Positions 6,290 through 31,899 of a stretch of 33,676 nt of DNA are shown piece after piece. Position 1 is the stretch's first letter, and every line of letters begins with the position of its first letter. Source of the stretch: a virus (Duplodnaviria > Heunggongvirae > Uroviricota > Caudoviricetes). Under the pieces are notes generated by a model. It saw only the letters and a program-made list of their open reading frames with translations, searched no databases and had not been told where the DNA came from. The DNA lies in IMG/VR virus record IMGVR_UViG_2690315994_000029, positions 1 through 33,676 of that record; one strand, 5' to 3'. The position numbers and the translations under genes were made by a program.

Positions 6290-8353
6290 TTAATCCTTAC
6301 GGTAGTGGTACGCCTCAAAACCGCCAGCGTTCAGTGGGATATCGGGCGCCCATTCGGGGTTAGTGGAGAGAAGCGCGGAAAGCGCTTTATCGTTGAAATC
6401 TTCTGTGTCAGGTGCTTCGGTGATCACCTCGTCGTGTACCGTCAGCACAATGCTGTAACCGGCATCTTCGATAAGCGGCATGTTTCCGGCCAGAACGTCG
6501 CGGGCGGCCGCCTGGGTGACGTTCTCTACCAGCTTTCCGCCGTAGGTTTTGAGTCGTTGCCATTTACGCGAATAAGAGTTAACACCCATATAGGTGATAT
6601 CCCCTTTTTCGATAACCGGAGACGGGTAGCATACAGCGCGTCCAGATGGCAGCTGTATGCGCAGCCACGCGCCATCACGTCGGATTTTAAGATAGCCGCA
6701 ATACAATGTTTTTTGCGGTGTGGCGATTGCTGTGCGGACGGTGCACTCCAGTTCGTACCAGAAATCACAGGTCGCGGGATGCGCCCGGCGCCAGAGACGT
6801 TTAAGTGAGTCGCAGGCGATAAATACCCGTTCAGAAAGCCCGTAGGTCGATTTACGTTTAACCGATTCGTCGTACCAGCTTTTCGCCTCGCGGATAACAT
6901 CGCGGGGAATGTTTGGCAGTGCGGCGTTCGCCAGCCCGTCGAGATCGAGACCGTAAACCAGAGCAAAAGTGATGAAAGCCGATACACCTCCTCCATAACC
7001 CAGACCGAGTTCCATGACTTTACCGATCTGACGCATGTGTTTATCAACATCATCTGGTGCAATATCGAAAGCTTTTGCATACGCCAGTTTATATAAGTCC
7101 GGACCCGTTCCGGCGTCGTACTCTCTGAATGCATTCAGTTTCCATTCTTCTCCCGCCAGCCATGCCAGCATACGGCCTTCAATGTTCGACAAGTCACTTA
7201 CCACCAGCTTTTTGCCTGTTGGCGCGATAATGCAGCCACGTAACGCTGAACTGGTTAGTTCCATGATATTGTCAAACAGCAGGTCTGCACATCCGGCTTT
7301 CAGTGCTTCGATGCCTTCGTCTATTTGTTCCTGTTTTAGTGAAGGGCGGGGAAGGTTCTGGGGCTGGAATAGCCGTCCGGCCCAACGACCGGTACGTGAC
7401 GCCCCGCAGAACTGTAGCGTACCGCGTAAGCGCCCGTCGTGGCTTACGCCTTTCATCAGTGCCTTGTATTTACTGGTGCTGGTAGTACTGGCCTGCAGGC
7501 GGATAGCCAGCAGTTCTTTCACGGCAGATGGTAAATCGGGGTCGGCAATACGACGTTCCAGAGTACTGCGTTGCATGTCTGGTAGCTCCACACCGTAGGA
7601 TTCAACAATGTGCTTAATCAACGCGTCTCGTTGTGTGGCTGCCTGCACTTCGCCATCAGTCATTTCCTGTGTACGCTTTGCCAGGCGCTTTTGTTCCTGG
7701 TCTACCGCGTCGATCGCAGCGCGTGCGAGTTCCACGTCCATGCAGACGCCCCGGTCATTGATCTGCTGATCACGATGCCAGAGCGCCAGTTCTGTCCCCT
7801 GATAATTCCACTTCGGCAGACGTTTATAGACTTCGCGCATTGCCTCGATATCCAGTCCGGCGTAAGCAACAAAGCGCCGCCATTCTTCCGGGTGGGTTTT
7901 GCTGGTGGCCCGGCGCAGTTTGCTGTTTTTCGGGCGTGGCTTACAGAACAGCTGGATCAGCGCTTTACCTTCTTTGTCCTTCGCTTTGTCTTGCGGGACG
8001 CCTAGTACTTCGCAGAGTTCCCCCAGAGCCCCCGGGAGACCGTGCGCCAGCGCCTGCACCATCGTGTCGCGCCAACGTTCGACTGGCGGTGCCAGTCGCG
8101 GCATTGCATAACGCAGGACGGTGCGGTCGAAGTGAGAGTTATGAAAATAAAGCAGGGTTTCAGGGGCTGCGATTGCTTCGTATAAGCCGTGTGGAATACC
8201 ACCACCGGCAGTGATATCCCATACGTTTACTGGCCCGTCGTTGATAGCCCATGCGAACAGCATCACTTCAACGCCTTCGGCATACGCATGGGTACCGTTC
8301 GTAATAGGGATTTCGCAATAGGTTTCCAGGTCGCCCCATAGTATATTGGACAT
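6290..8353 (-). CDS. family-A DNA polymerase (Pol I-like, phage replicative)
   Basis: 687 aa; Pol A motif A-like [14 protein letters not shown], motif B-like [16 protein letters not shown], motif C VHDE; N-terminal exonuclease-like region. Confidence 0.85.
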
Positions 8354-8399
8354 GTGTTTACCTTGGTTTTTATTCTATTAACTGATTAAAAGATTAATT

Positions 8400-9029
8400 A
8401 TGCATATGATCCAATACTTGATTGACCATACAGAGCATCTGGAGAAAATAGCTGGATATATTTTTTCATGTTTGATTGTTATGGGAGTCTGGATAAGAAA
8501 GATCATTTTTAATTATAAGTATAAAGAGCCTAAATATGTCAAGAAGTTAATTTTATATTTAGTTAAGTATGAACGTTATCTGGATAAGGAGGATAAGAGT
8601 GCCATAGAAAAAAGAATAAATGATAAAATTATTCGTGATGCGCTGAAATTGCAATCTTCTTATAACCGAAGTGATGTTATTTACATTTGCAATAGATTAG
8701 AAAAAAGACAGTATATAAATCAGGTGATTAAGCTTCAGAATTATATAGAGAAAGATAACGGAGTGTTTTTCATCAATGTTAATTTTTCAGGTTTTTTATT
8801 TATTATTAGTCGTCTGTTTTCCTTTCTGTGTTTTGTGCTGTTTATCCTTTTTTCTATTATCTGCATTATTTCCATAGGGCAAAATGAAGGCCTTTTAAAT
8901 TATCTTGTGTATATGGTTATGACAATAGTTTTAGAGACTGTTGGTTTTTGGATGTATGATACTTTCCCGTCTAAGAAGAAGATCTGTGAACTAAATAAAG
9001 AATTGAGGAAGATTAAGATTCCTGAGTGA
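8400..9029 (+). CDS. hypothetical multi-pass membrane protein, AT-rich moron
   Basis: 209-aa ORF with GC visibly far below flanks (roughly 30 percent vs about 50 percent, by eye); hydrophobic segments IAGYIFSCLIVMGVWI, FSGFLFIISRLFSFLCFVLFILFSIICIISI, LLNYLVYMVMTIVLETVGFWMY; opposite strand to flanking replication genes. Confidence 0.7.
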   Translation: MHMIQYLIDHTEHLEKIAGYIFSCLIVMGVWIRKIIFNYKYKEPKYVKKLILYLVKYERYLDKEDKSAIEKRINDKIIRDALKLQSSYNRSDVIYICNRLEKRQYINQVIKLQNYIEKDNGVFFINVNFSGFLFIISRLFSFLCFVLFILFSIICIISIGQNEGLLNYLVYMVMTIVLETVGFWMYDTFPSKKKICELNKELRKIKIPE

Positions 9030-18246: not shown

Positions 18247-18723
18247 ATGCAGACACTAAATTCCCAACGTAAAGCTTTCCTGGATATGGTGGCATGGTCA
18301 GAAGGAACGGATAACGGGCGACAACCGACACGTAATCACGGTTATGACGTTATCGTCGGAGGTGAGTTGTTCACTGATTACTCCGATCACCCTCGCAAAC
18401 TTGTCACGCTAAACCCGAAGCTTAAATCAACAGCCGCAGGACGGTATCAGCTTCTTTCACGCTGGTGGGATGCCTACTGTAAGCAGCTTGGCCTGAAAGA
18501 TTTTTCGCCAGAAAGTCAGGACGCTGTGGCGCTGCAGCAGATTAAAGAGCGTGGCGCTTTACCGATGATTGACCGTGGCGATATTCGTCAGGCAATCGAC
18601 TGTTGCAGCAATATCTGGGCGTCGTTACCTGGTGCAGGTTACGGTCAGTATGAACATAAAATCGGTGACCTGATTTCCAGGTTTAAAGATGCTGGTGGGG
18701 TGGTAAATGAAGCTGACTTATAA
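18247..18723 (+). CDS. R: endolysin, lambda R-like lytic transglycosylase
   Basis: 158 aa, near-identical over long stretches to lambda R as I recall it (NQRKAFLDM.AWSEGTDNGRQ.TRNHGYDVIVGGELFTDYSDHPRKLVTLNPKLKST). Confidence 0.9.
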   Translation: MQTLNSQRKAFLDMVAWSEGTDNGRQPTRNHGYDVIVGGELFTDYSDHPRKLVTLNPKLKSTAAGRYQLLSRWWDAYCKQLGLKDFSPESQDAVALQQIKERGALPMIDRGDIRQAIDCCSNIWASLPGAGYGQYEHKIGDLISRFKDAGGVVNEADL

Positions 18724-19231
18724 GATTGTCATCGCGGCATTTTTCTTCTCTGCCTTTGGGGCGCTCGTCTGGTCTGCAAACCATTACCACAGCAAGTATC
18801 AGGCAGAAAAGTTGCGGGCTGATAAAGCGGAAGGTGAAGCTGAATATCAAGGGAAAGTGATAGCTAATCAGGCATTAAACTTCAATCGTTTTAACCAGAT
18901 AGCAGAAAACGCAAGCCGATTAAATTCTCTGGTCGACATCGGTCACGAGAAGACAGTCATCAAATACCGTGAGGTTCTGCTCCGTGAAAAGAACTGTGAT
19001 TTCCCTGTTCCTGTTGATATTGCTGTCGGGTTGCTCAACTACGCGAACCGTTTACGCGCCAGCGCATTGCACGCCGATTCCGGGGACATTGACTCAGCCG
19101 GTGATCGTGCCACTACCACCAGAACGTTGACATATTGCCAGGCTGTTCTGTGGATTAACCCACTGTTGGCGGCCATCGAGAAGGCGAATAACCAGTTGGC
19201 TGGTGTCCGACAAATAGAACAGTCCCGGTAA
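18707..19231 (+). CDS. Rz: Rz-like i-spanin
   Basis: 174 aa; N-terminal TM helix then coiled-coil; overlaps the R stop; contains embedded Rz1 frame. Confidence 0.75.
   Translation: MKLTYKIVIAAFFFSAFGALVWSANHYHSKYQAEKLRADKAEGEAEYQGKVIANQALNFNRFNQIAENASRLNSLVDIGHEKTVIKYREVLLREKNCDFPVPVDIAVGLLNYANRLRASALHADSGDIDSAGDRATTTRTLTYCQAVLWINPLLAAIEKANNQLAGVRQIEQSR
18984..19130 (+). CDS. Rz1: Rz1-like o-spanin lipoprotein (embedded in Rz)
   Basis: Alternate-frame ORF with lipobox LSGC and Pro-rich tail (LFLLILLSGCSTTRTVYAPAHCTPIPGTLTQPVIVPLPPER); start codon uncertain (GTG 18984 assumed). Confidence 0.5.
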   Translation: MKRTVISLFLLILLSGCSTTRTVYAPAHCTPIPGTLTQPVIVPLPPER

Positions 19232-19292
19232 TAGCATTACAGAAGCTCTTCCAGGAGGGGCTTCGATAATGACCTGATAACTGGAAAATAAA

Positions 19293-19867: not shown

Positions 19868-20544
19868 ATGCCGTTACCATTCCCCTTCGATTTTAAACAT
19901 CCTGATTACCAGATGGTTTTTGAATGGCGGATGGAACGCCTACAGCGCATTCGCCAGAATCCTGAAATATTGCCCGTATTGAAGCAGTTTTACCGAACCA
20001 ATCCGGCTCAGTTCATCATCGACTGGGGCATGACAACGGACCCGCGTAATATTGATTATGGCCTGCCGGTGAACATTCCGTTTTTACTCTTCCCTAAGCA
20101 GGAGGAGTGGATCCACTGGATTATGGAACGCTGGGGCAATCGGGAGAATGGTATTACCGAAAAATCCCGTGAAATGGGGCTCAGTTGGACCGCGATCGGA
20201 CTGGCCTGCTCGCTTTGTCTCTTCAACAAAGAAATGGTTATCGGTTTCGGCTCCCGTAAAGAGGAATACGTCGACAGCACTGGTGACCCGAAAGCATTGT
20301 TCTGGAAGGCACGCAAGTTCGTGGAAACGCTACCTGTAGAGTTTCGCGGTTCGTGGAGTGAGAAGAAGCACGCGCCATATATGCGTGTTGAGTTTCCTGA
20401 AACTGGTGCCGTTATCAAAGGCGAGGCTGGCGATAATATTGGTCGTGGTGACCGTACCACGCTTTATCTGGTTGATGAGGCTGCATTCCTTCAGCGTCCT
20501 CTGCTGATTGATGCGGCGTTGTCACAAACGACGCGTTGCCGTAT
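19868..20544 (+). CDS. terminase large subunit, 3'-truncated at contig join
   Basis: N-terminal 225 aa including Walker-A-like EKSREMGLS and Walker [10 protein letters not shown]; reading frame is cut by 'n' at 20545. Confidence 0.7.
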
Positions 20545-20545
20545 N

Positions 20546-21724
20546 TGACTCACAATGGGCGGCAATTTGTTCCATTGCCCCAAAGATTGGCTGTACGCCA
20601 GAGACTCTGCGTGTGTGGGTTCGTCAGCATGAGCGGGATACCGGGAGTGGTGATGGTGGATTCACCACCGCTGAACGTCAGCGTCTGAAAGAGCTGGAAC
20701 GTGAAAATCGTGAACTGCGCCGCAGTAACGATATCCTTCGCCAGGCTTCCGCTTATTTTGCGAAGGCGGAGTTCGACCGCCTCTGGAAAAAATAATGCCA
20801 CTGCTGGATAAGCTGCGTGAGCAGTACGGGGTCGGACCGGTATGCAGTGAACTGCATATTGCCCCGTCAACGTATTACCACTGTCAGCAACAGCGACATC
20901 ATCCTGATAAACGCAGTGCCCGTGCGCAGCGCGATGACTGGCTGAAGAGAGAGATACAGCGCGTATACGATGAAAATCATCAGGTGTACGGTGTGCGTAA
21001 AGTCTGGCGCCAGTTGTTACGCGAAGGTATCAGGGTGGCCAGATGTACAGTGGCGCGCCTCATGGCGGTTATGGGACTTGCCGGTGTTCTCCGGGGTAAA
21101 AAGGTCCGTACTACCGTCAGCCGGAAAGCCGTTTCCGCAGGCGACCGCGTAAACCGTCAGTTCGTGGCAGAACGTCCTGACCAGCTGTGGGTGGCTGATT
21201 TTACTTACGTCAGCACATGGCAGGGCTTCGTCTATGTGGCGTTCATCATTGATGTGTTTGCCGGATGCATCGTGGGGTGGCGAGTCTCATCGTCTATGGA
21301 AACGACATTCGTGCTGGATGCACTGGAGCAGGCGTTGTGGGCCCGTCGGCCGTCCGGCACAGTCCATCACAGTGATAAAGGTTCTCAGTATGTATCACTG
21401 GCCTATACGGAGCGACTAAAAGAAGCAAAACTGCTGGCATCAACAGGGAGTACAGGTGACTCGTATGACAACGCGATGGCGGAGAGCATCAATGGTCTTT
21501 ACAAAGCGGAGGTAATACACCGTAAGAGCTGGAAAAACCGTGCAGAAGTGGAACTGGCCACACTCACGTGGGTGGACTGGTATAACAATCGACGATTGCT
21601 GGGAAGGCTGGGTCATATCCCTCCGGCAGAAGCAGAAAAAGCTTATTATGCTTCCATCAGAAACGATGATCTGGCAGCCTGAGTTCACAGATAAAACACT
21701 CTCCAGGAAAACCGGGGCGGTTCA
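20546..21724 (+). mobile_element. IS3-family insertion sequence (IS629/IS1203-like by recollection), 5'-truncated at contig join
   Basis: Partial orfA (20547-20795), TAATG overlap into orfB, right terminal repeat ending CCGGGGCGGTTCA at 21724; left end and first ~28 codons of orfA missing. Confidence 0.75.
20795..21682 (+). CDS. IS3-family transposase OrfB (DDE integrase domain)
   Basis: 295 aa with DDE-type catalytic region (WVADFTYV ... HHSDKGSQY ... DNAMAES); normally made as an OrfAB frameshift fusion. Confidence 0.8.
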   Translation: MPLLDKLREQYGVGPVCSELHIAPSTYYHCQQQRHHPDKRSARAQRDDWLKREIQRVYDENHQVYGVRKVWRQLLREGIRVARCTVARLMAVMGLAGVLRGKKVRTTVSRKAVSAGDRVNRQFVAERPDQLWVADFTYVSTWQGFVYVAFIIDVFAGCIVGWRVSSSMETTFVLDALEQALWARRPSGTVHHSDKGSQYVSLAYTERLKEAKLLASTGSTGDSYDNAMAESINGLYKAEVIHRKSWKNRAEVELATLTWVDWYNNRRLLGRLGHIPPAEAEKAYYASIRNDDLAA

Positions 21725-21725
21725 G

Positions 21726-21815
21726 AATGTGCTGTGGAACTGGATCCTGTTCCGTAAATTTTCCTCTCCGGAGGAAGTCGAAAATGTGGCCGCGCAGTTA
21801 CTGGAGTTTGCGTAA
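21726..21815 (+). pseudogene. 3' remnant of a phage gene interrupted by the IS element
   Basis: In-frame tail ...NVLWNWILFRKFSSPEEVENVAAQLLEFA whose stop overlaps the next ATG (TAATG), as in a packed phage operon; 5' part is not in the window. Confidence 0.35.
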
Positions 21816-22105
21816 TGGTGGATTTACGTAAAGCGGCGCGGGGGCAGATGTGCACCGTCAGAATTCCTGGCTACTGCAATCACAATCCCGAAACTTCTGT
21901 GCTGGCGCATTACAGGCTGGCGGGGACGTGCGGAACAGCGACAAAACCACACGATATGCAGGCAGCGATTGCCTGTAGCTCATGCCACGATTTAATCGAC
22001 GGGCGGGTAAAAAACAGCGATTACACCAAAGAAGAATTACGCCTGATGCATGCAGAAGGTGTTTTTCGCACACAAGAAATCTGGAGAAAGGAAGGTTATT
22101 TATGA
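21815..22105 (+). CDS. YbcO-like (DUF1364) nin-region protein
   Basis: 96 aa; DLRKAARGQMCTVRIPGYCNHNPETSVLAHYRLAG ... IACSSCHDLID resembles E. coli DLP12 YbcO as I recall it. Confidence 0.65.
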   Translation: MVDLRKAARGQMCTVRIPGYCNHNPETSVLAHYRLAGTCGTATKPHDMQAAIACSSCHDLIDGRVKNSDYTKEELRLMHAEGVFRTQEIWRKEGYL

Positions 22106-22656
22106 TTTACCCAACAAATACAGGCAAAAGCGGGGAACACCTTCGTCTCTCCACGCTGGAAAGTGTCTGGATTCAGGGAAAACTGCGCATGTGGGGGCGC
22201 TGGTCGTATATTGGCGGCGGTAAGACGGGAAATATGTTCAACCAGTTGCTGACCTCTAAAAAGCTGACAAAAACGGCAATTAACGAGGCGCTCCGGAGGA
22301 TGAAAAAAGCAGGTCTGGACAAACCTGAACTTGAGGCTTTTTTGCGGGATATGATCAACGGCAAGCAAAAAAGCTGGCTGGTGCATTGTACTGATGCAGA
22401 GGCGTTATGCATTGATCGGGTGATTAGTGAAGTGCTGGCAGAACACCCAGGATTGATTTGTATCCTCCGGCAAAGATATGAAGGGCGGGGGATGAGTAAG
22501 CGCAAAATGGCTGAATTGCTAAATGATGCACACCCTGAGTGGTGTTTTCGGACGTGCTGCAGTCGGGTAGATGTATGGCTAAATCTTGCTGAATATATGC
22601 TCTATCTGCCGATGCGTGATGCATTCTCTTCCGGGTATTTAAAAACTGTCTGTTGA
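22102..22656 (+). CDS. putative Q-like late antiterminator (second, divergent allele)
   Basis: 184 aa from ATG 22102 (AAAGGAAGG RBS, ATGA overlap with previous gene); shares the W-G-x-W N-terminal motif and C-terminal HTH-like region with the 16661 Q-like protein; followed by a terminator. Confidence 0.5.
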   Translation: MIYPTNTGKSGEHLRLSTLESVWIQGKLRMWGRWSYIGGGKTGNMFNQLLTSKKLTKTAINEALRRMKKAGLDKPELEAFLRDMINGKQKSWLVHCTDAEALCIDRVISEVLAEHPGLICILRQRYEGRGMSKRKMAELLNDAHPEWCFRTCCSRVDVWLNLAEYMLYLPMRDAFSSGYLKTVC

Positions 22657-22744
22657 CTCAATCTGTTATCCGGGGCTATATTCCTCACGCGCCAGCAAAA
22701 TCTGGCGTCGGGATTAGGAACCCCGGATAGAGACCGCGACAGAC

Positions 22745-22766
22745 ACACGCCGCGAGCGTGTTTTTT
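22745..22766 (+). terminator. putative rho-independent terminator (tR'-like) after the Q-like gene
   Basis: ACACGC-cgcga-GCGTGT followed by TTTTTTATT; preceded by hairpin CGCCAG-caaaat-CTGGCG at 22690-22707. Confidence 0.55.
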
Positions 22767-22929
22767 ATTGTCGTATGCACGCGCACATCTGAATTATGGT
22801 GGGGCGTATGGGGGAGCTGAAAAGCTCGCCGGTTGGTTTCCCGGTAGTTCCTAACCCTGTACGTCTCACCACCCGATGATTAGGAACCTGACGGTGGTGA
22901 TGGTTTAGAAACCACCAGAGGGCGTCATT

Positions 22930-23511
22930 ATGACAACTCAAATTTCTGTTGAAACTCTCTCCCCGATCACCCATAACCAGATTCCTGTTATTACCACCGA
23001 ACTTTTGGCGCAGTTGTACGGTGCTGAAGTTAAGAACATTCAAAATAACTACGCCAGAAATGCTGAGCGCTTTATTGAAGGAAAGCATTTTTTCAAAGTG
23101 GCTGGCGATGCCCTGAAAAATTTGCGGGTAGCTTTAAACTACTCACAAAATTTGCAACCATCTTTAAGAGGGTTACAAATTTCCCCGAAAGCCCGCTCCC
23201 TCATCCTCTGGACAGAACGCGGAGCAGCCCGTCATGCCAAAATGCTCGAAACCGATCAGGCGTGGGATGTGTTCGAAAAGCTGGAAGACTGCTATTTCAG
23301 ACAAAAGGATCCGTCAGCGCCAGTTTCATGCCAGAAAAGTTACGACACGCGAGTTCTCTGTTATCAGCGAGGCGGTGTCACTGTTTCCACAATTCAGTTA
23401 CGGGATGATGATATTGTTATTTCCCTTGAGTCATGGCTGGAACTGGCGAGAGCCAATGGTTGGTTTGTTGTTCGCAGAGATAAACTGGTGGAAAGGTTGA
23501 TGCAGCTTTAA
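22930..23511 (+). CDS. ORF6N-domain protein (antirepressor-like DNA-binding cargo gene)
   Basis: 193 aa; N-terminal ITTELLAQLYGAEVKNIQNNYARNAERFIEGKHFFKV matches the ORF6N domain pattern as I know it; sits in the Q-to-holin slot. Confidence 0.65.
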   Translation: MTTQISVETLSPITHNQIPVITTELLAQLYGAEVKNIQNNYARNAERFIEGKHFFKVAGDALKNLRVALNYSQNLQPSLRGLQISPKARSLILWTERGAARHAKMLETDQAWDVFEKLEDCYFRQKDPSAPVSCQKSYDTRVLCYQRGGVTVSTIQLRDDDIVISLESWLELARANGWFVVRRDKLVERLMQL

Positions 23512-23606
23512 AAAAGTTCTTGCATTTTTGCACATAAACTGCTTCAATTCCGGTACGCTTCGCAAAGCTGTATCGCGAGGCGAATCAAGCGCATGAACTT
23601 TACCAG

Positions 23607-23635
23607 AACCCGCCATTGAGCGGGTTTTGTTGTTT
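23607..23635 (+). terminator. putative rho-independent terminator
   Basis: AACCCGC-cattga-GCGGGTT followed by TTGTTGTTTC. Confidence 0.5.
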
Positions 23636-23858
23636 CTGACGGATAGAAAAATGAAATAGCTAAATAAAAAGAATGCATTGGATGCCATATATTGGCAACG
23701 TGACGACAGCGTTAATCTGGTCGGGCTCCCATGGCGACGTAGTGAGGGAGAGGAAGCGTAAAGCATCACTGAGTTACGGTTGGCACCCGGTTTAACGCGT
23801 AAGTGGCCTGATAAAGAGATAGTGCGCCGCGGCACTCACAGCGGCAACGATTAACTGA

Positions 23859-23885
23859 CCTCGGCATTTGCCGAGGTTTTTTATT
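23859..23885 (+). terminator. putative rho-independent terminator
   Basis: CCTCGGC-attt-GCCGAGG followed by TTTTTTATTT. Confidence 0.6.
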
Positions 23886-24006
23886 TAAGGCCGCAGACAG
23901 GCCCATTTAGTGCAACGCCTTTCCCCGTTTCCGCTCCTGGAATATTCGGGGATTTTTTATTCCCTCAATTTGCACCCGCGATATGTGCGAGGTGAGAGAT
24001 GATGAA

Positions 24007-24342
24007 ATGCCTCATAACCCAAATACCTGGCCGGACTGGCTGGAGTTGTTTCAGAGCTGGTGGCGTGGAGACACACCGCTGGGTGCAGTGATTATGTCGA
24101 TCGTTATGGCTGGTTTGCGCATCGCCTATTTTGGCGGTGGTGGGGGCTGGAAACGAAAAACGCTTGAGATTTTGCTCTGTGGTGCCCTGACGCTGACCTT
24201 TGCATCCGCGCTTGAGTATGTCGGATGGCCTAAATCACTTTCTGTTGCCATTGGTGGTGGGGTGGGGCTGATTGGTGTTGATGCTATTCGTGGTGCGGCA
24301 ATGAGGGTCATCGGTAACAAGTTCGGTGCCCATAAGGAGTAA
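24007..24342 (+). CDS. holin (second copy, divergent N-terminus)
   Basis: Identical to the 17902 holin from WWRGDTPLGAV onward except for the last residues; different N-terminus; start ATG 24007. Confidence 0.65.
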   Translation: MPHNPNTWPDWLELFQSWWRGDTPLGAVIMSIVMAGLRIAYFGGGGGWKRKTLEILLCGALTLTFASALEYVGWPKSLSVAIGGGVGLIGVDAIRGAAMRVIGNKFGAHKE

Positions 24343-24345
24343 TTA

Positions 24346-24822
24346 ATGCAGACACTTAATTCCCAGCGTAAAGCTTTCCTTGATATGGTGGCATGGTCAG
24401 AAGGAACGGATAACGGGCGACAACCGACACGTAACCACGGTTATGATGTTATTGTTGGTGGCGAACTGTTCACTGATTACTCCGATCACCCTCGCAAACT
24501 TGTCACACTAAATCCGACACTCAAATCAACAGCCGCCGGACGTTACCAGCTTCTTTCACGCTGGTGGGATGCCTACCGCAAGCAACTTGGTCTGAAAGAT
24601 TTTTCTCCAGAAAGCCAGGATGCTGTAGCGCTGCAGCAGATTAAAGAGCGTGGCGCTTTACCGATGATTGACCGCGGCGATATTCGTCAGGCAATCGACC
24701 GGTGCAGCAATATCTGGGCGTCGTTACCTGGTGCAGGTTACGGTCAGTATGAACATAGAATCGGTGACCTGATTTCCCGATTTAAAGAAGCTGGTGGGGT
24801 GGTAAATGAAGCTGAGATATAA
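24346..24822 (+). CDS. R: endolysin, lambda R-like lytic transglycosylase (second copy)
   Basis: 158 aa, about 95 percent identical to the 18247 copy by eye. Confidence 0.9.
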   Translation: MQTLNSQRKAFLDMVAWSEGTDNGRQPTRNHGYDVIVGGELFTDYSDHPRKLVTLNPTLKSTAAGRYQLLSRWWDAYRKQLGLKDFSPESQDAVALQQIKERGALPMIDRGDIRQAIDRCSNIWASLPGAGYGQYEHRIGDLISRFKEAGGVVNEAEI

Positions 24823-25198
24823 GCTGGTTATTGTTGCCTTCTTTGTTACCGTCATCGGTTCTTTTATCTGGTCTGCCGGGCATTACTACAGCAAATATCA
24901 ACACGAAAAGGAGCGTGCTGATGAGGCTGTACGAAATGCTGAATCTGCAACAGCCATTACCAGTAACGTCCTGCAATCACTGCAAATCATCAATACAGTT
25001 ATAGAGGCTAACCAGCATGCAAAACAGCAGATCGCACTGGAGTCACAGAGAACCCAGGAAGATATCAAAGTGGCTGTTGCGGATGATGATTGTGCTGTTC
25101 GTATCGTTCCTTCTGGCGCAGTTAAGCGGTTGCACGAATACGCGAACGGTATACGTGTCGGTGCCGGTCGTTCCGTTACCAGCCAGTCTGACGGATGA
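24806..25198 (+). CDS. Rz: Rz-like i-spanin (second, divergent copy)
   Basis: 130 aa; N-terminal TM helix plus coiled coil; overlaps the R stop. Confidence 0.7.
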   Translation: MKLRYKLVIVAFFVTVIGSFIWSAGHYYSKYQHEKERADEAVRNAESATAITSNVLQSLQIINTVIEANQHAKQQIALESQRTQEDIKVAVADDDCAVRIVPSGAVKRLHEYANGIRVGAGRSVTSQSDG

Positions 25199-25361
25199 AA
25201 CACCCCAGCCAGATTTACCCGACCCGTTTACGTGGGGAGCCAGCATTAACCTGAATGTTGCGTTGTTGTCAGCGTTAGCACAGTGCAACAGGGATAAGGC
25301 TGATATCAGGACTTTTGAGAAAAATAGGGCAGCACAAACTAATGGCACGATTAAACGTTGA
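25083..25361 (+). CDS. Rz1: Rz1-like o-spanin lipoprotein (overlapped, extends past Rz)
   Basis: Alternate frame; lipobox LAQLSGC and Pro-rich PVVPLPASLTDETPQPDLPDP; start taken at MMIVLF (25083). Confidence 0.5.
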   Translation: MMIVLFVSFLLAQLSGCTNTRTVYVSVPVVPLPASLTDETPQPDLPDPFTWGASINLNVALLSALAQCNRDKADIRTFEKNRAAQTNGTIKR

Positions 25362-25527
25362 AGTTATCCCACCAGACAGCGAAACGATGAACGGGATTTT
25401 TGCAGAGATTGAACGTAAATATGCGCATCAGCCGATGACGCCAAAAGTTATCGATGAAATGCAACGCGAAGCGGCGCGCCTTGTACGGCGAGCGACAAAC
25501 ACGAAGGTTACGTTCGTTCGGGACTGA
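25342..25527 (+). CDS. small hypothetical protein
   Basis: 61-aa ORF from ATG 25342 in the extra segment that prophage B has between Rz and the conserved hairpin; weak RBS. Confidence 0.3.
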   Translation: MARLNVEVIPPDSETMNGIFAEIERKYAHQPMTPKVIDEMQREAARLVRRATNTKVTFVRD

Positions 25528-25664
25528 CATTACAGAAGCTCCTTTGATAAGGAGCTTCGATAATGTCACTAAGAGGAAAAATTCATGGCAAAACCGGACT
25601 GGGAGGCCATCGAATCGGTGCCCCGGGCCAGATTGCTCTCTCCGTTAAATCAGAACTCAAAATC

Positions 25665-26120
25665 CTATCCGTGGAAAATATTTGCATCCAAATCATCTAT
25701 GAGATTAGACCTAACTGATTCATAATTTTTCCCATATGCGGCCCCTTTACCTGAATGGGTTACATGCCCAATAGGACCGTACAGAAGTATAGAGATTGTG
25801 AATGATATTTCATCAGAAATGCCGCCTATCTTTTGAAACCAAAGTTCCGGGTTACGATTCCGGTCGGTTACAACGTCAAATACAAGCGCGATAAGATCTG
25901 GGAGATAGTACATGTTAAATCCGCCTTTTGGGGTCAACTCGAGATTCAACAGGGCTTTGATGGAGGGATAATTGCTTACATCATCCTGAATGCCATTCTT
26001 AAGAGTTGTAAACACAAAGTTCAGCATTTCAGCAACTTTATCTTTGTTTGGTTCTACTCCATTTCTGAAGGACCGCTCTCCAGATTCATATTTTTCAACA
26101 CAAAAATCTAATAAATTCAT
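25665..26120 (-). CDS. hypothetical soluble protein, low-GC moron between lysis and terminase genes
   Basis: About 151 aa (ATG 26120 with GGGGA RBS; track start 26126); opposite strand to the late operon; GC visibly lower than flanks; no motif recognised. Confidence 0.6.
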   Translation of the reverse strand: MNLLDFCVEKYESGERSFRNGVEPNKDKVAEMLNFVFTTLKNGIQDDVSNYPSIKALLNLELTPKGGFNMYYLPDLIALVFDVVTDRNRNPELWFQKIGGISDEISFTISILLYGPIGHVTHSGKGAAYGKNYESVRSNLIDDLDANIFHG

Positions 26121-26142
26121 TATCATTCCCCGAGGTAACTAA

Positions 26143-26694
26143 ATGGCGCTCACCGACAAACAAGAGATGTTCTGTCGCGAGTACCTCATCGATTTAAACG
26201 CCACGCAAGCGGCTATTCGGGCGGGGTACAGCGCTAAGACAGCTAACCGTACCGCATCCGAAAACCTGTCAAAACCTGACATCAAGTTAAGAATCGCCGA
26301 ACTGAAAGCGCAACGCAATGATCTTGTTGGTATTAATGCAGAATATGTACTTAATCGCCTTATTGAAATCGACCAGATGGATGTGCTTGACATTCTCCTG
26401 CAAAACGGTGAGCTAAAACCCATTAAAGACTGGCCTAAGGTATGGCGCACAACGCTATCAGGAATGGATGTCGTGGAGATGGTATCCGCAGATAGCGCCG
26501 CACTTCTGAAGAAAATCAAATGGCCTGATAAGGTTAAAAACCTTGAGTTGCTTGGGCGCCATGTTTCTGTTCAGGCGTTTAAAGACAACGTCAAAAATGA
26601 AGTGACTGGTGCTGACGGAGGACCAGTCAGAACAGAAATTACCAACTTAACGCCGGAGCAGGCTGCAGAAGCGTATAAAAAAATGATGGGCTAA
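26143..26694 (+). CDS. terminase small subunit (second allele, mosaic)
   Basis: 183 aa; N-terminal two thirds diverged from the 19293 copy, C-terminal ~60 aa near-identical. Confidence 0.7.
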
Positions 26695-26696
26695 GT

Positions 26697-27562
26697 ATGC
26701 CGTTACCATTTCACTTCGATTTTAAACATCCTGATTACCAGATGGTTTTTGAATGGCGGATGGAACGCTTACAGCGCATTCGCCAGAACCCTGAAATATT
26801 GCCTGCACTAAAACAGTTTTACCGAACCAATCCGGCTCAGTTCATCATCGACTGGGGCATGACAACGGACCCGCGTAATATTGATTATGGCCTGCCGGTG
26901 ACCATTCCGTTTTTACTCTTCCCTAAGCAGGAGGAGTGGATCCACTGGATTATGGAACGCTGGAGCAATCGGGAGAATGGTATTACCGAAAAATCCCGTG
27001 AAATGGGGCTCAGTTGGACCGCGATCGGACTGGCCTGCTCGCTTTGTCTCTTCAACAAAGAAATGGTTATCGGTTTCGGCTCCCGTAAAGAGGAATACGT
27101 CGACAGCACTGGTGACCCGAAAGCATTGTTCTGGAAGGCACGCAAGTTCGTGGAAACGCTACCTGTAGAGTTTCGCGGTTCGTGGAGTGAGAAGAAGCAC
27201 GCGCCATATATGCGTGTTGAGTTTCCTGAAACTGGTGCCGTTATCAAAGGCGAGGCTGGCGATAATATTGGTCGTGGTGACCGTACCACGCTTTATCTGG
27301 TTGATGAGGCTGCATTCCTTCAGCGTCCTCTGCTGATTGATGCGGCGTTGTCACAAACGACGCGTTGCCGTATTGACCTGAGTTCAGTTAACGGCATGGC
27401 GAACCCGTTCGCTCAGAAGCGTCATGGCGGGAAGATACCGGTATTCACATTCCACTGGCGGGATGATCCTCGCAAGGATGAAGAGTGGTATCGCAGGGAA
27501 TGCGAGAAAATCGATAATCCGGTGGTGGTGGCACAGGAACTAGATCTGAACTACAGCGCATC
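26697..27562 (+). CDS. terminase large subunit, 3'-truncated at contig join
   Basis: Same N-terminal sequence as 19868 with a few substitutions; cut by 'n' at 27563. Confidence 0.7.
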
Positions 27563-27563
27563 N

Positions 27564-29018
27564 CTAATAAATTCATTATCATTCCCCGAGGTAACTAAAT
27601 GGCGCTCACCGACAAACAAGAGATGTTCTGTCGCGAGTACCTCATCGATTTAAACGCCACGCAAGCGGCTATTCGGGCGGGGTACAGCGCTAAGACAGCT
27701 AACCGTACCGCATCCGAAAACCTGTCAAAACCTGACATCAAGTTAAGAATCGCCGAACTGAAAGCGCAACGCAATGATCTTGTTGGTATTAATGCAGAAT
27801 ATGTACTTAATCGCCTTATTGAAATCGACCAGATGGATGTGCTTGACATTCTCCTGCAAAACGGTGAGCTAAAACCCATTAAAGACTGGCCTAAGGTATG
27901 GCGCACAACGCTATCAGGAATGGATGTCGTGGAGATGGTATCCGCAGATAGCGCCGCACTTCTGAAGAAAATCAAATGGCCTGATAAGGTTAAAAACCTT
28001 GAGTTGCTTGGGCGCCATGTTTCTGTTCAGGCGTTTAAAGACAACGTCAAAAATGAAGTGACTGGTGCTGACGGAGGACCAGTCAGAACAGAAATTACCA
28101 ACTTAACGCCGGAGCAGGCTGCAGAAGCGTATAAAAAAATGATGGGCTAAGTATGCCGTTACCATTTCACTTCGATTTTAAACATCCTGATTACCAGATG
28201 GTTTTTGAATGGCGGATGGAACGCTTACAGCGCATTCGCCAGAACCCTGAAATATTGCCTGCACTAAAACAGTTTTACCGAACCAATCCGGCTCAGTTCA
28301 TCATCGACTGGGGCATGACAACGGACCCGCGTAATATTGATTATGGCCTGCCGGTGACCATTCCGTTTTTACTCTTCCCTAAGCAGGAGGAGTGGATCCA
28401 CTGGATTATGGAACGCTGGAGCAATCGGGAGAATGGTATTACCGAAAAATCCCGTGAAATGGGGCTCAGTTGGACCGCGATCGGACTGGCCTGCTCGCTT
28501 TGTCTCTTCAACAAAGAAATGGTTATCGGTTTCGGCTCCCGTAAAGAGGAATACGTCGACAGCACCGGTGACCCGAAAGCATTGTTCTGGAAGGCGCGCA
28601 AGTTCGTGGAAACACTACCTGTAGAGTTTCGCGGTTCGTGGAGCGAGAAGAAGCACGCGCCATATATGCGTGTTGAGTTTCCTGAAACTGGTGCCGTTAT
28701 CAAAGGCGAGGCTGGCGATAATATTGGTCGTGGTGACCGTACCACGCTTTATCTGGTTGATGAGGCTGCATTCCTTCAGCGTCCTCTGCTGATTGATGCG
28801 GCGTTGTCACAAACGACGCGTTGCCGTATCGACCTGAGTTCAGTTAACGGCATGGCTAACCCGTTCGCTCAGAAGCGTCATGGCGGGAAGATACCGGTAT
28901 TCACATTCCACTGGCGGGATGATCCTCGCAAGGATGAAGAGTGGTATCGCAGGGAATGCGAGAAAATCGATAATCCGGTGGTGGTGGCACAGGAACTTGA
29001 TCTGAACTACAGCGCATC
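27564..29018. repeat. redundant copy of 26108-27562 (overlapping contig joined by 'n')
   Basis: Sequence after 'n' 27563 restarts at CTAATAAATTCATTATCATTCC and repeats the small and large terminase 5' parts. Confidence 0.85.
27599..28150 (+). CDS. terminase small subunit (redundant copy)
   Basis: Identical protein to 26143-26694. Confidence 0.7.
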
Positions 29019-29238: not shown

Positions 29239-29830
29239 GAGAAGAAGCACGCGCCATATATGCGTGTTGAGTTTCCTGAAACTGGTGCCGTTATCAAAGG
29301 CGAGGCTGGCGATAATATTGGTCGTGGTGACCGTACCACGCTTTATCTGGTTGATGAGGCTGCATTCCTTCAGCGTCCTCTGCTGATTGATGCGGCGTTG
29401 TCACAAACGACGCGTTGCCGTATTGACCTGAGTTCAGTTAACGGCATGGCGAACCCGTTCGCTCAGAAGCGTCATGGCGGGAAGATACCGGTATTCACAT
29501 TCCACTGGCGGGATGATCCTCGCAAGGATGAAGAGTGGTATCGCAGGGAATGCGAGAAAATCGATAATCCGGTGGTGGTGGCACAGGAACTTGATCTGAA
29601 CTACAGCGCATCAGCGGAAGGCGTTCTGATTCCATCCGAATGGGTACAGGCTGCCGTTGATGCGCATATCAAACTGGGTATCCAGCCAACAGGCAAACGA
29701 CTTGGCGCGATGGATGTCGCCGACGAGGGCAGGGACAAAAATGCCTTTTCCACCCGTCATGGCTTCCTCCTGGAGAATGTGCGGGAATGGTCCGGTGTGG
29801 GCAGCGACATTTATCAGTCCGTCGAGAAGG
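29239..29830. repeat. redundant copy of about 28646-29237
   Basis: Sequence after 'n' 29238 restarts inside the large terminase at GAGAAGAAGCACGCGCC. Confidence 0.8.
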
Positions 29831-30369: not shown

Positions 30370-30420
30370 TGGCACGAAACAAACAAGCCCTGCGGCGAAC
30401 TGCGCAGGCNNNNNNNNNNN

Positions 30421-31888: not shown

Positions 31889-31899
31889 NNNNNNNNNNN

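What the first reader, a model, noticed from the sequence alone, without database searches (positions are those of the whole stretch)
25528..26142. Low-GC 153-aa moron between lysis and terminase genes, present in prophage B but absent from the homologous junction of prophage A
The window allows an internal comparison. In prophage A only 61 bp (19232-19292) separate Rz from the small terminase. In prophage B the same conserved boundary hairpin (25534-25557) is followed by a minus-strand, low-GC ORF (25665-26120) before the small terminase (26143). It is therefore an insertion relative to A, on the opposite strand, with its own RBS. No TM segments or known motifs. B also has an extra ~330 bp between Rz and the hairpin, holding the Rz1 extension and a possible 61-aa ORF (25342-25527).
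Basis: seen in the sequence. Interest (0 to 1): 0.6.

Follow-up and report, generated by a model that had tools for sequence, protein, structure and literature searches.

The report
Orphan accessory gene beside prophage terminase
A real, conserved 151-residue gene of unknown function sits backwards between the lysis and DNA-packaging genes of an E. coli prophage, in a slot where related prophages carry other unrelated genes and where known phages keep anti-phage defence genes; it is a reasonable but unproven defence candidate.

Summary
A minus-strand ORF (25665-26120, 151 aa, not 153) lies between the lysis cassette and the small terminase (TerS). Its GC is 39% against about 49% for the flanks. 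Prophage A lacks it: there 61 bp separate Rz from TerS.

It is a real gene (dN/dS about 0.2, conserved Shine-Dalgarno). It belongs to a rare family: 26 clusters among 1.84 billion representatives, and 6 of 5426 E. coli genomes. It has no Pfam, PHROG, NCBIfam or PADLOC match. The confident all-alpha model (pLDDT 89.8) has no convincing fold relative.

In most of the roughly 20 loci examined the gene lies between lysis and TerS, antisense to the late operon, often 22-23 nt from the TerS start. With about 95% identical flanks, other E. coli prophages carry an unrelated 182-aa gene there. Other Terminase_2 prophages carry further unrelated genes in the same TerS-adjacent position.

It is not a simple insertion. 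A relic of a second TerS type (25585-25632) shows the gene arrived together with its packaging module.

The layout matches phi80 Tai/Ati and JBD26 Tab/anti-Tab, but profile comparison excludes Tai membership.

Most likely it is a lysogen-expressed accessory gene, probably anti-phage. Its function, promoter and terminator are unproven. Interest is moderate.

The parts
25665..26120 (-). 151-aa gene of an uncharacterised, rare family (exact protein WP_053897622.1, 'hypothetical protein'). Soluble, mildly acidic, with a compact all-alpha fold.
   Evidence: ORF. All homologues start at this ATG. dN/dS 0.20-0.25. 26 clusters at 50% identity in 1.84 billion representatives. AF2 pLDDT 89.8, pTM 0.87. 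No Pfam, PHROG, PADLOC, NCBIfam or PDB match. pI about 5. Cluster names.
26121..26142 (.). 22-nt divergent intergenic region with back-to-back Shine-Dalgarno sequences (CCCCGAGGT: GGGGA for the minus-strand gene, GAGGT for TerS).
   Evidence: Sequence. The same 22-23 nt spacing is found in Klebsiella and other E. coli loci, and a purine-rich SD is conserved across homologues.
26143..26694 (+). Small terminase subunit (Terminase_2). Its first ~90 nt (26143-26232) are 91-99% identical at the DNA level across genera in cargo-bearing prophages. This stretch may hold the cargo promoter or may be a recombination linker.
   Evidence: Pfam PF03592, E 7e-40. Sliding identity profile. About 55 nt of this 5' end travels with displaced copies of the gene in L013, L019 and L020.
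25585..25632 (+). Relic of the 5' end (MAKPDWEAIES...) of a second small-terminase type (HK639/SEN34-like), preceded by its RBS AAGAGG at 25572-25577.
   Evidence: tblastn of the L020 copy of this relic (MTKPDWEAIE...) hits N-termini of annotated small terminases. The intact gene is found in E. coli PEC122. The relic is also present next to the gene in Klebsiella and L020.
25525..25568 (.). Strong hairpin at the end of the lysis module. It has no T-run on either strand, so it is not a canonical intrinsic terminator.
   Evidence: -26.2 and -26.5 kcal/mol, z -9 and -10. No terminator-like site found. Inner stem shared with prophage A.
25342..25527 (+). 61-aa late-strand ORF (phrog_12811), the last gene of the lysis module. 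Not specifically linked to the cargo.
   Evidence: PHROG E 2e-39. Present with the unrelated 182-aa cargo and with no cargo. Absent from Klebsiella and Rahnella loci that carry the gene. No similarity to AtiEcA.
25619..26142 (.). Variable segment of the slot: the stretch that differs from E. coli C/B-type prophages, whose flanks are about 95% identical.
   Evidence: Alignment. Flank matches end at query position 319 and resume at 834-844.
19232..19292 (.). Homologous junction of prophage A without cargo: hairpin followed directly by a 66%-identical Terminase_2 TerS.

Best explanation
The ORF is a functional accessory ('moron'-type) gene. It occupies the cargo slot immediately upstream of the packaging module of lambdoid prophages and is transcribed against the Q-dependent late operon.

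It belongs to a rare, uncharacterised single-domain family with a compact all-alpha fold. The invariant residues are mostly hydrophobic or structural (F68, F81, L93, W94, G115, plus D75 and N88). This points to a binding protein rather than an enzyme.

The gene travels as a unit with the 5' end of the Terminase_2 small-terminase gene. It is swapped between prophages by recombination at two short conserved sequences: a relic of another TerS on one side and the ultra-conserved TerS 5' end on the other.

The position, orientation and polymorphic slot match phi80 Tai/Ati, JBD26 Tab/anti-Tab and Listeria TerI. By that analogy, the most likely function is a protein made constitutively in the lysogen that protects the lysogen from other phages. 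It would probably act by binding a protein of the invader. Transcription of the late operon during induction may oppose its expression.

Shown: real gene, family, fold, slot anatomy, polymorphism, synteny.
Inferred: lysogen expression, defence role, binding mechanism.
For: Real gene:
- dN/dS 0.20-0.25.
- Conserved start and SD.
- Confident AF2 model.

Foreign and rare:
- 39% GC against 49% for the flanks.
- 6 of 5426 E. coli genomes.
- 26 clusters at 50% identity.

Conserved position and orientation:
- The gene lies between lysis and TerS, antisense to the late genes, in E. coli, Klebsiella, Rahnella, Rouxiella, Pseudomonas-phage-type and metagenomic viral contigs. These prophages have two different TerS families.

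Polymorphic slot:
- Unrelated genes sit in the same TerS-adjacent position and orientation, 19-24 nt from the TerS ATG: 182 aa (phrog_30882), 177 aa (YkgJ/CxxCxxCC) and 144 aa (phrog_29029).

Precedents with the same architecture:
- phi80 taiEcA is divergent, lies upstream of the packaging module, interrupts the Q operon and is expressed in the lysogen (PMC11364771).
- The TerI locus has a conserved promoter and alternating unrelated defence genes (10.1101/2025.02.27.640495).

One non-prophage copy:
- In Aeromonas a family member lies 49 nt downstream of a PADLOC candidate defence pair (PDC-M43A/B) and beside an AriA/mad3-like ABC ATPase.
Against: - There is no experimental or homology-based link to defence. 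PADLOC gives no hit, and the gene is absent from the DefensePredictor supplements and from searched full texts.
- No convincing sigma-70 promoter was found. The best candidate is TTGACA-15-TACGGT about 125 nt upstream inside TerS. It has a suboptimal spacer and is weaker in Klebsiella.
- No intrinsic terminator was found.
- No conserved late-strand partner that could act as counter-defence was found.
- The Aeromonas association is a single case with unvalidated candidate systems.
- Many morons at this kind of junction act on host physiology rather than on phages. Lambda bor is an example (own knowledge).
Confidence: 0.45

Rival explanations
1. It is a lysogenic-conversion or other accessory gene unrelated to phage defence. 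Examples would be a modulator of host physiology or virulence, or an anti-defence protein that helps the phage itself. It would sit at a permissive module boundary simply because insertions there are tolerated.
For: - The module boundary is demonstrably recombinogenic, with relics of two TerS types.
- All alternative cargos are of unknown function.
- Lambda bor occupies a comparable position and orientation and is a serum-resistance lipoprotein (own knowledge).
- The family is mildly acidic and small, as many inhibitors are.
Against: - There is no signal peptide, lipobox or TM segment, so it is not Bor-like (sequence).
- Anti-defence genes are normally in early operons on the lytic strand, not antisense to late genes.
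- The closest architectural precedents with known function are defence genes.
Confidence: 0.3
2. It serves the phage's own lytic cycle or its regulation. Convergent or antisense transcription across the TerS start (an excludon or non-contiguous operon) could keep packaging genes silent in the lysogen. Alternatively the protein could modulate the terminase.
For: - The gene start is only 22 nt from the TerS start, so any promoter must lie inside TerS and its transcript origin overlaps the late mRNA.
- The first 90 nt of TerS are abnormally conserved at synonymous sites in cargo-bearing prophages.
- The gene and TerS are co-inherited between genera.
- In phi80, Q expression lowers TaiEcA (PMC11364771).
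Against: - Prophage A, PEC122 and many other relatives do without it.
- Unrelated proteins replace it in the same slot.
- The protein sequence itself is under purifying selection.
- Copies exist away from any terminase in Aeromonas, Serratia and Castellaniella.
Confidence: 0.15
3. It is a spurious or decaying ORF in junk DNA left by recombination at the module boundary.
For: The surrounding DNA does contain relics (25585-25632), and the window is a messy scaffold.
Against: - Full-length homologues of 139-157 aa occur in several orders of Proteobacteria.
- dN/dS is 0.20-0.25.
- The SD is conserved.
- The model has pLDDT 89.8.
Confidence: 0.02

Closest known systems
Tai/Ati tail-assembly-inhibition system of phage phi80 (orf63 taiEcA, orf64 atiEcA; He et al. 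2024, PMC11364771)
   Same: - A single gene upstream of the packaging module, downstream of the lysis genes.
- It is divergent to, and interrupts, the Q-dependent late operon.
- It is a patchily distributed 'moron locus' cargo in lambdoid prophages of Enterobacterales.
- It has no PADLOC or DefenseFinder match.
   Different: - There is no sequence relationship: hhalign probability is 1.8% between the family profiles.
- The sizes differ: 151 aa against 204 aa.
- The Tai alignment has an invariant RNDLAHN motif that is absent here.
- No AtiEcA-like neighbour is present.
- Function is untested here.
Tab/anti-Tab of Pseudomonas phage JBD26 (Patel et al. 2024, PMC10884400) and TerI/anti-TerI of Listeria phi10403S (bioRxiv 10.1101/2025.02.27.640495)
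   Same: - A small orphan protein encoded on the strand opposite to a lytic operon, next to or near the terminase genes.
- In those systems it is constitutively expressed in the lysogen.
- The TerI locus keeps a conserved promoter region while unrelated genes alternate downstream of it. This resembles the conserved TerS 5' end with alternating cargos seen here.
   Different: - Tab is 83 aa and lies between TerS and TerL.
- TerI is 65 aa and lies in the early module of a Gram-positive phage.
- Both have a dedicated counter-defence gene on the lytic strand, and none could be identified here.
- Sequence similarity to Tab and TerI was not tested because their sequences were not held.
Classical lambdoid morons at the lysis/packaging junction (e.g. 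lambda bor; concept of Juhala/Hendrix 2000, own knowledge)
   Same: - Present in one phage and absent from the same junction of a relative.
- Atypical base composition.
- Opposite strand, between Rz and the packaging genes.
   Different: - Bor is a lipoprotein, whereas this protein has no signal sequence.
- The flanking promoter and terminator expected for a moron were not found.
- The gene was acquired together with the packaging module rather than as a free-standing insertion.

Membership tests
Tai (tail assembly inhibition) family | Sequence homology to TaiEcA and its homologues | tested here: not met
   hhalign of the 30-sequence family profile (A3) against TaiEcA alone gave probability 0.65%. 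Against a 12-sequence Tai profile (A6) it gave probability 1.8%. tblastn of the protein against 50,697 phage records, which include phi80, found only Pseudomonas phage PseuP_222.
Tai (tail assembly inhibition) family | Location upstream of the packaging module, divergent to the Q-controlled late operon | tested here: met
   Window anatomy. The same holds in most of the loci examined. Compare the phi80 map and the paper.
Tai (tail assembly inhibition) family | Adjacent late-strand counter-defence gene (Ati-like) | tested here: not met
   The 61-aa late-strand neighbour shows no alignment to AtiEcA. It also occurs with an unrelated cargo and with no cargo and is absent from Klebsiella and Rahnella loci. 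A non-homologous counter-defence gene cannot be excluded.
Tai (tail assembly inhibition) family | Blocks tail assembly of invading phages | not testable with these tools
   Needs plaque assays and electron microscopy of lysates.
Moron (Hendrix/Juhala sense) | Extra gene present at a junction where a related phage has none | tested here: met
   Prophage A has 61 bp with no gene. PEC122 has orf61, the hairpin and TerS with no gene between them.
Moron (Hendrix/Juhala sense) | Base composition different from the surrounding phage genes | tested here: met
   39.0% GC against 49%, which is the lowest 1.8% of windows.
Moron (Hendrix/Juhala sense) | Own promoter and own terminator flanking the gene | tested here: inconclusive
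   The consensus scan found none upstream of the gene. A PWM scan gave one candidate inside TerS (TTGACA-15-TACGGT, score 9.8 against a 90th percentile of 8.6), and it is weaker in Klebsiella. The downstream hairpin is strong but lacks a T-run.
Moron (Hendrix/Juhala sense) | Expressed from the repressed prophage | not testable with these tools
   Needs transcriptome data or a reporter in a lysogen.
Known or candidate defence systems (PADLOC-DB 2.0) | Match to a model of a known or candidate defence protein | tested here: not met
   No hit at E <= 1. The Aeromonas homologue also has no hit.
Bor-like lipoprotein morons | N-terminal signal peptide with lipobox | tested here: not met
   The N-terminus MNLLDFCVEKYESGERSF is hydrophilic and has no lipobox. 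GRAVY is -0.20.

The most novel reading that the evidence does not exclude
The gene founds a new family of prophage-encoded single-protein immunity factors with a previously unseen all-alpha fold. It would interfere with virion assembly or DNA packaging of competing phages. Self-immunity would come not from a separate counter-defence gene but from co-inheritance with a compatible small-terminase allele. That would explain the gene's tight physical linkage to the TerS start and the ultra-conserved TerS 5' end, which would also carry the promoter shared by all cargos of the slot.
Probability: 0.12. Interest if true: 0.7.

Novelty: new member of a known kind. Interest (0 to 1): 0.4.

Why it matters
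If the protein is an anti-phage factor, three things follow.
- It adds a new orphan-fold family to the small group of prophage genes that sit antisense in lytic operons and protect lysogens (Tai, Tab, TerI).
- It marks the TerS-adjacent slot of Terminase_2 lambdoid prophages as a place to mine. At least four unrelated uncharacterised families alternate there. One of them, a 182-aa protein, is present in E. coli B, C and E2348/69.
- The anatomy gives a concrete example of how such cargo moves: as a block with the packaging module, using short conserved terminase 5' sequences as recombination linkers.

If the protein is not a defence factor, this is one more hypothetical moron, of limited interest.

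Tried and rejected
Searches that found nothing for the 151-aa protein:
- Pfam, PHROGs, PADLOC and NCBIfam on the protein itself, and Pfam on all 30 family members.
- Profile search of PDB sequences: best E 0.1, not meaningful.
- Foldseek against BFVD: nothing below E = 1.
- The AFDB50 library was unavailable.

Hypotheses tested and rejected:
- Tai membership.
- The E. coli C 182-aa cargo as a homologue of this gene or of Tai.
- The 61-aa ORF as an Ati-like counter-defence gene.
- A DNA-mimic reading. The family pI is about 5, with 15-25 acidic residues against 10-20 basic ones, so it is not strongly acidic.
- The FDAARGOS_1059 'short' junction as an ancestral empty site. It is a deletion derivative of the 182-aa type.

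Inconclusive or failed:
- Promoter and terminator searches.
- The search for related loci with the wide alignments failed for lack of conserved columns. A narrower alignment worked.
- Accession searches in full texts and in the DefensePredictor and Tai supplements found no mention.

Full report
**1. The observation**

The window has a minus-strand ORF at 25665-26126 (153 aa from the first ATG). Every homologue begins at the second ATG (MNLL...). That ATG has a GGGGA Shine-Dalgarno 6 nt upstream. The gene is therefore 25665-26120 and encodes 151 aa.

Its GC content is 39.0% (GC3 36.8%). The neighbouring prophage genes are at 49%, and only 1.8% of equally long windows are as low.

The protein has a single copy in the window, and prophage A has no equivalent.

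The boundary hairpin is shared by A and B. In B it extends to 25525-25568. It folds at -26 kcal/mol with z about -9 on both strands, but it has no T-run.

The 61-aa ORF (25342-25527) is a genuine conserved phage family, phrog_12811.

One caveat applies to the 'internal comparison'. The window is a scaffold with N joints at 20545, 27563, 29238, 30410 and 31889. It contains several redundant copies of terminase sequence, for example 26108-26407 = 27564-27863. An IS3-type element follows the first joint. A and B are thus two related prophage sequences from one assembly, but their adjacency is unverified. The stretch holding Rz, the ORF and TerS (20546-27562) has no N.

**2. It is a real gene of a rare orphan family**

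- A word-indexed search of 5.8 billion proteins found 7 relatives, in Klebsiella and Serratia.
- An exhaustive profile search of 1.84 billion cluster representatives found only 26 clusters. Most are about 140-157 aa and match over nearly their full length.
- The exact protein is WP_053897622.1, 'hypothetical protein'. Its 90% cluster also includes Salmonella sequences.
- Informative pairwise dN/dS values are 0.20-0.25.
- The family alignment has invariant F68, D75 and F81, and near-invariant N88, L93, W94 and G115. These lie in a motif D-x-(I/V)-A-L-(V/I)-F-(D/E)-V-V-T-E-x-N-R-N-P-x-L-W. Few polar residues are invariant, which argues against an enzyme.
- The proteins are soluble and mildly acidic, with pI about 5.
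- With 14 sequences, AlphaFold2 gives a confident model (pLDDT 89.8, pTM 0.87) of seven helices.
- Pfam, PHROGs, NCBIfam, PADLOC and PDB sequence profiles give nothing.

**3. Where the family lives**

In most of the roughly 20 loci examined, the gene lies between the lysis cassette and the small terminase, antisense to the late genes.

- E. coli, Klebsiella and one further viral contig (L021): 22-23 nt from the TerS ATG.
- Rahnella: 37 nt.
- Other viral contigs and Rouxiella: 126-1221 nt.
- Pseudomonas phage PseuP_222 and related contigs: the gene again lies next to TerS, although TerS there belongs to a different family. A 63-71-aa ORF sits between them.

There are three exceptions:
- A Serratia prophage remnant next to an integrase.
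- A Castellaniella prophage, where the gene is convergent with the spanin gene.
- An Aeromonas chromosomal island. There the gene follows, on the same strand and 49 nt downstream, a pair matching the PADLOC candidate system PDC-M43A/B. It is also next to an AriA/mad3-like ABC ATPase.

**4. The slot is polymorphic**

- Among 5426 complete E. coli genomes, 6 carry the window's arrangement at more than 99% identity.
- Many more, including E. coli C, B/BL21 derivatives and E2348/69, have flanks about 95% identical. These hold an unrelated 182-aa minus-strand gene (phrog_30882) 19 nt from the TerS ATG.
- Strain SCU-124 has a YkgJ/CxxCxxCC-type 177-aa gene there, 24 nt from TerS.
- Viral contig L020 has a 144-aa gene (phrog_29029) 22 nt from TerS. 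The family member is displaced 1.2 kb upstream.
- One genome has a deletion derivative.
- None of these cargos has a known function.

**5. How the junction was built**

Immediately after the hairpin, B keeps an RBS and the first ~45 nt (MAKPDWEAIES...) of another small-terminase type.

- A tblastn search with the L020 copy of that peptide (MTKPDWEAIE...) hits the N-termini of annotated small terminases of HK639, SEN34 and others.
- E. coli PEC122 shows the intact state: orf61, hairpin, this TerS, TerL, with no cargo.
- E. coli and Klebsiella prophages share a continuous ~85% identical block. It starts inside this relic (window 25591) and runs through the gene into TerS. Their lysis modules are different.

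On the other side, the first 90 nt of the Terminase_2 TerS are 91-99% identical at the DNA level across genera. The rest of the gene is 50-80% identical, and prophage A's TerS is only 56-76% identical in that stretch. Displaced copies of the gene in L013, L019 and L020 still carry about 55 nt of this TerS 5' end upstream of them.

The gene is therefore not a free insertion relative to A. It is part of a block (relic, cargo, TerS start) that recombines via short conserved terminase sequences. The 61-aa ORF belongs to the lysis module.

**6. Expression signals**

The gene has a conserved Shine-Dalgarno. Because it starts 22 nt from the TerS ATG, any promoter must lie inside TerS.

- The consensus scan found none there.
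- A PWM scan gave one candidate, TTGACA-15-TACGGT, about 125 nt upstream. It is above the 90th percentile for the window, has a short spacer, and is degraded in Klebsiella.
- The abnormal synonymous-site conservation of the TerS 5' end is compatible with an embedded promoter shared by all cargos. It is equally compatible with a recombination linker.
- No intrinsic terminator follows the gene. The strong hairpin 97 nt downstream could stop or stabilise transcripts from either side, but this is inference.

**7. Comparison with what is known**

Three studied systems have the same architecture.

- In phi80, taiEcA (orf63, 204 aa) lies upstream of the packaging module and divergent to the Q-dependent late operon. 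It is made in the lysogen and blocks tail assembly of other phages. Most Tai homologues are in phage moron loci, predominantly upstream of the packaging module. A small late-strand gene, atiEcA, gives self-immunity (PMC11364771).
- Tab of JBD26 is a minus-strand 83-aa gene between the terminase genes, with a late-strand anti-Tab (PMC10884400).
- TerI of Listeria phi10403S is transcribed from the opposite strand of a lytic module. Its locus keeps a conserved promoter region while unrelated genes with the same activity alternate downstream (10.1101/2025.02.27.640495).

I tested membership in Tai directly.
- The family profile against TaiEcA and against a 12-sequence Tai profile gives hhalign probabilities of 0.65% and 1.8%.
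- The 182-aa cargo is not Tai either.
- The 61-aa ORF does not resemble AtiEcA.

So the gene works in a place, and probably in a way, like these systems. It is not a member of the Tai family. No paper or supplement searched mentions the protein.

**8. Verdict**

Established:
- a real, conserved, compositionally foreign accessory gene;
- a rare orphan family with a confident fold that has no convincing relative;
- a polymorphic cargo slot next to the small terminase;
- a recombination history that ties the cargo to the packaging module.

Inferred, at about 45% confidence:
- expression in the lysogen;
- an anti-phage role exerted by protein binding.

Rival readings:
- another kind of accessory function, about 30%;
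- a role in the phage's own regulation or packaging, about 15%;
- a spurious ORF, about 2% and effectively excluded.

For a specialist, an unknown moron at this junction is expected rather than surprising. The value lies in a well-delimited candidate and a minable slot. Interest is 0.4, and the novelty class is a new member of a known kind.

Noticed in passing
window 20545, 27563, 29238, 30410-30420, 31889-31899; repeats 26108-26407 = 27564-27863, and 20360-20544 = 27189-27373 = 28645-28829 = 29239-29423: The window is a scaffold of contigs joined by N. Terminase sequence is repeated three to five times after 26108, and an IS3-type element (orfA/orfB, 20508-21682) lies at the first joint. The tandem 'prophage A - prophage B' layout and the long fused terminase ORFs are probably assembly artefacts.
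   Followed up: partly
window 25572-25632 (+): An RBS plus the first ~45 nt of a second, HK639/SEN34-type small-terminase gene (MAKPDWEAIES...) survive as a relic right after the hairpin. The same relic lies next to the gene in Klebsiella prophages and in contig L020. It looks like a recombination linker between lysis and packaging modules.
   Followed up: yes
window 26143-26232 (+): The first 90 nt of the Terminase_2 small-terminase gene are 91-99% identical at the DNA level across E. coli, Klebsiella, Rahnella and viral contigs. The rest of the gene is 50-80% identical, and prophage A's TerS is only 56-76% identical here. Displaced cargo copies keep about 55 nt of it upstream. It may be an embedded promoter for the divergent cargo or a recombination hot sequence.
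   Followed up: partly
L003 3361-3909 (E. coli C); also E. coli B/BL21 derivatives and E2348/69: An unrelated 182-aa minus-strand protein (WP_000762846.1, phrog_30882, unknown function) fills the same slot in E. coli genomes, including common laboratory strains. It has no Pfam, PADLOC or NCBIfam hit and no relation to Tai.
   Followed up: partly
L020 4802-5236 and L024 1976-2509: Two further alternative cargos were seen 22-24 nt from the TerS start, in the same orientation. One is a 144-aa protein (phrog_29029) whose sequence looks like a PD-(D/E)xK nuclease core (my reading, not tested). The other is a 177-aa YkgJ/CxxCxxCC cysteine-cluster protein. A CxxCxxCC gene also lies near the family member in the Serratia remnant L007.
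   Followed up: partly
L010 3549-5420 (Aeromonas hydrophila): A family member lies 49 nt downstream, on the same strand, of two genes matching the PADLOC candidate defence pair PDC-M43A/B (the second has an HATPase_c domain). It is beside an AriA/mad3-like ABC ATPase. It may be a third gene of that candidate system.
   Followed up: partly
window 18707-19231 (A) versus 24806-25361 (B): The two prophages have different spanin layouts. B has a 130-aa Rz with an overlapping Rz1/LysC that runs past its end. A has a 174-aa Rz whose in-frame C-terminus resembles the C-terminus of B's Rz1, plus a short lipobox ORF (LLSGC) in the +1 frame. phrog_214 covers both arrangements.
   Followed up: no
window about 8250-9000: This is the lowest-GC spot of the window (27% GC in 456-nt windows). 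It overlaps a 209-aa plus-strand ORF at 8400-9029, outside the prophage regions.
   Followed up: no
alignment A6 (phi80 orf63 family; L025 3366-3980): The TaiEcA family alignment shows an invariant R95-N-D-L-A-H100-N stretch, i.e. an Rx4H pattern like the HEPN motif. I did not check whether the Tai paper reports it.
   Followed up: no
L001 3616-3831 and L011 4647-4838: In the Pseudomonas-phage-type loci, a conserved 63-71-aa ORF on the same strand sits between TerS and the family member. It has no PHROG, Pfam or PADLOC match and could be a partner protein in that branch of the family.
   Followed up: no
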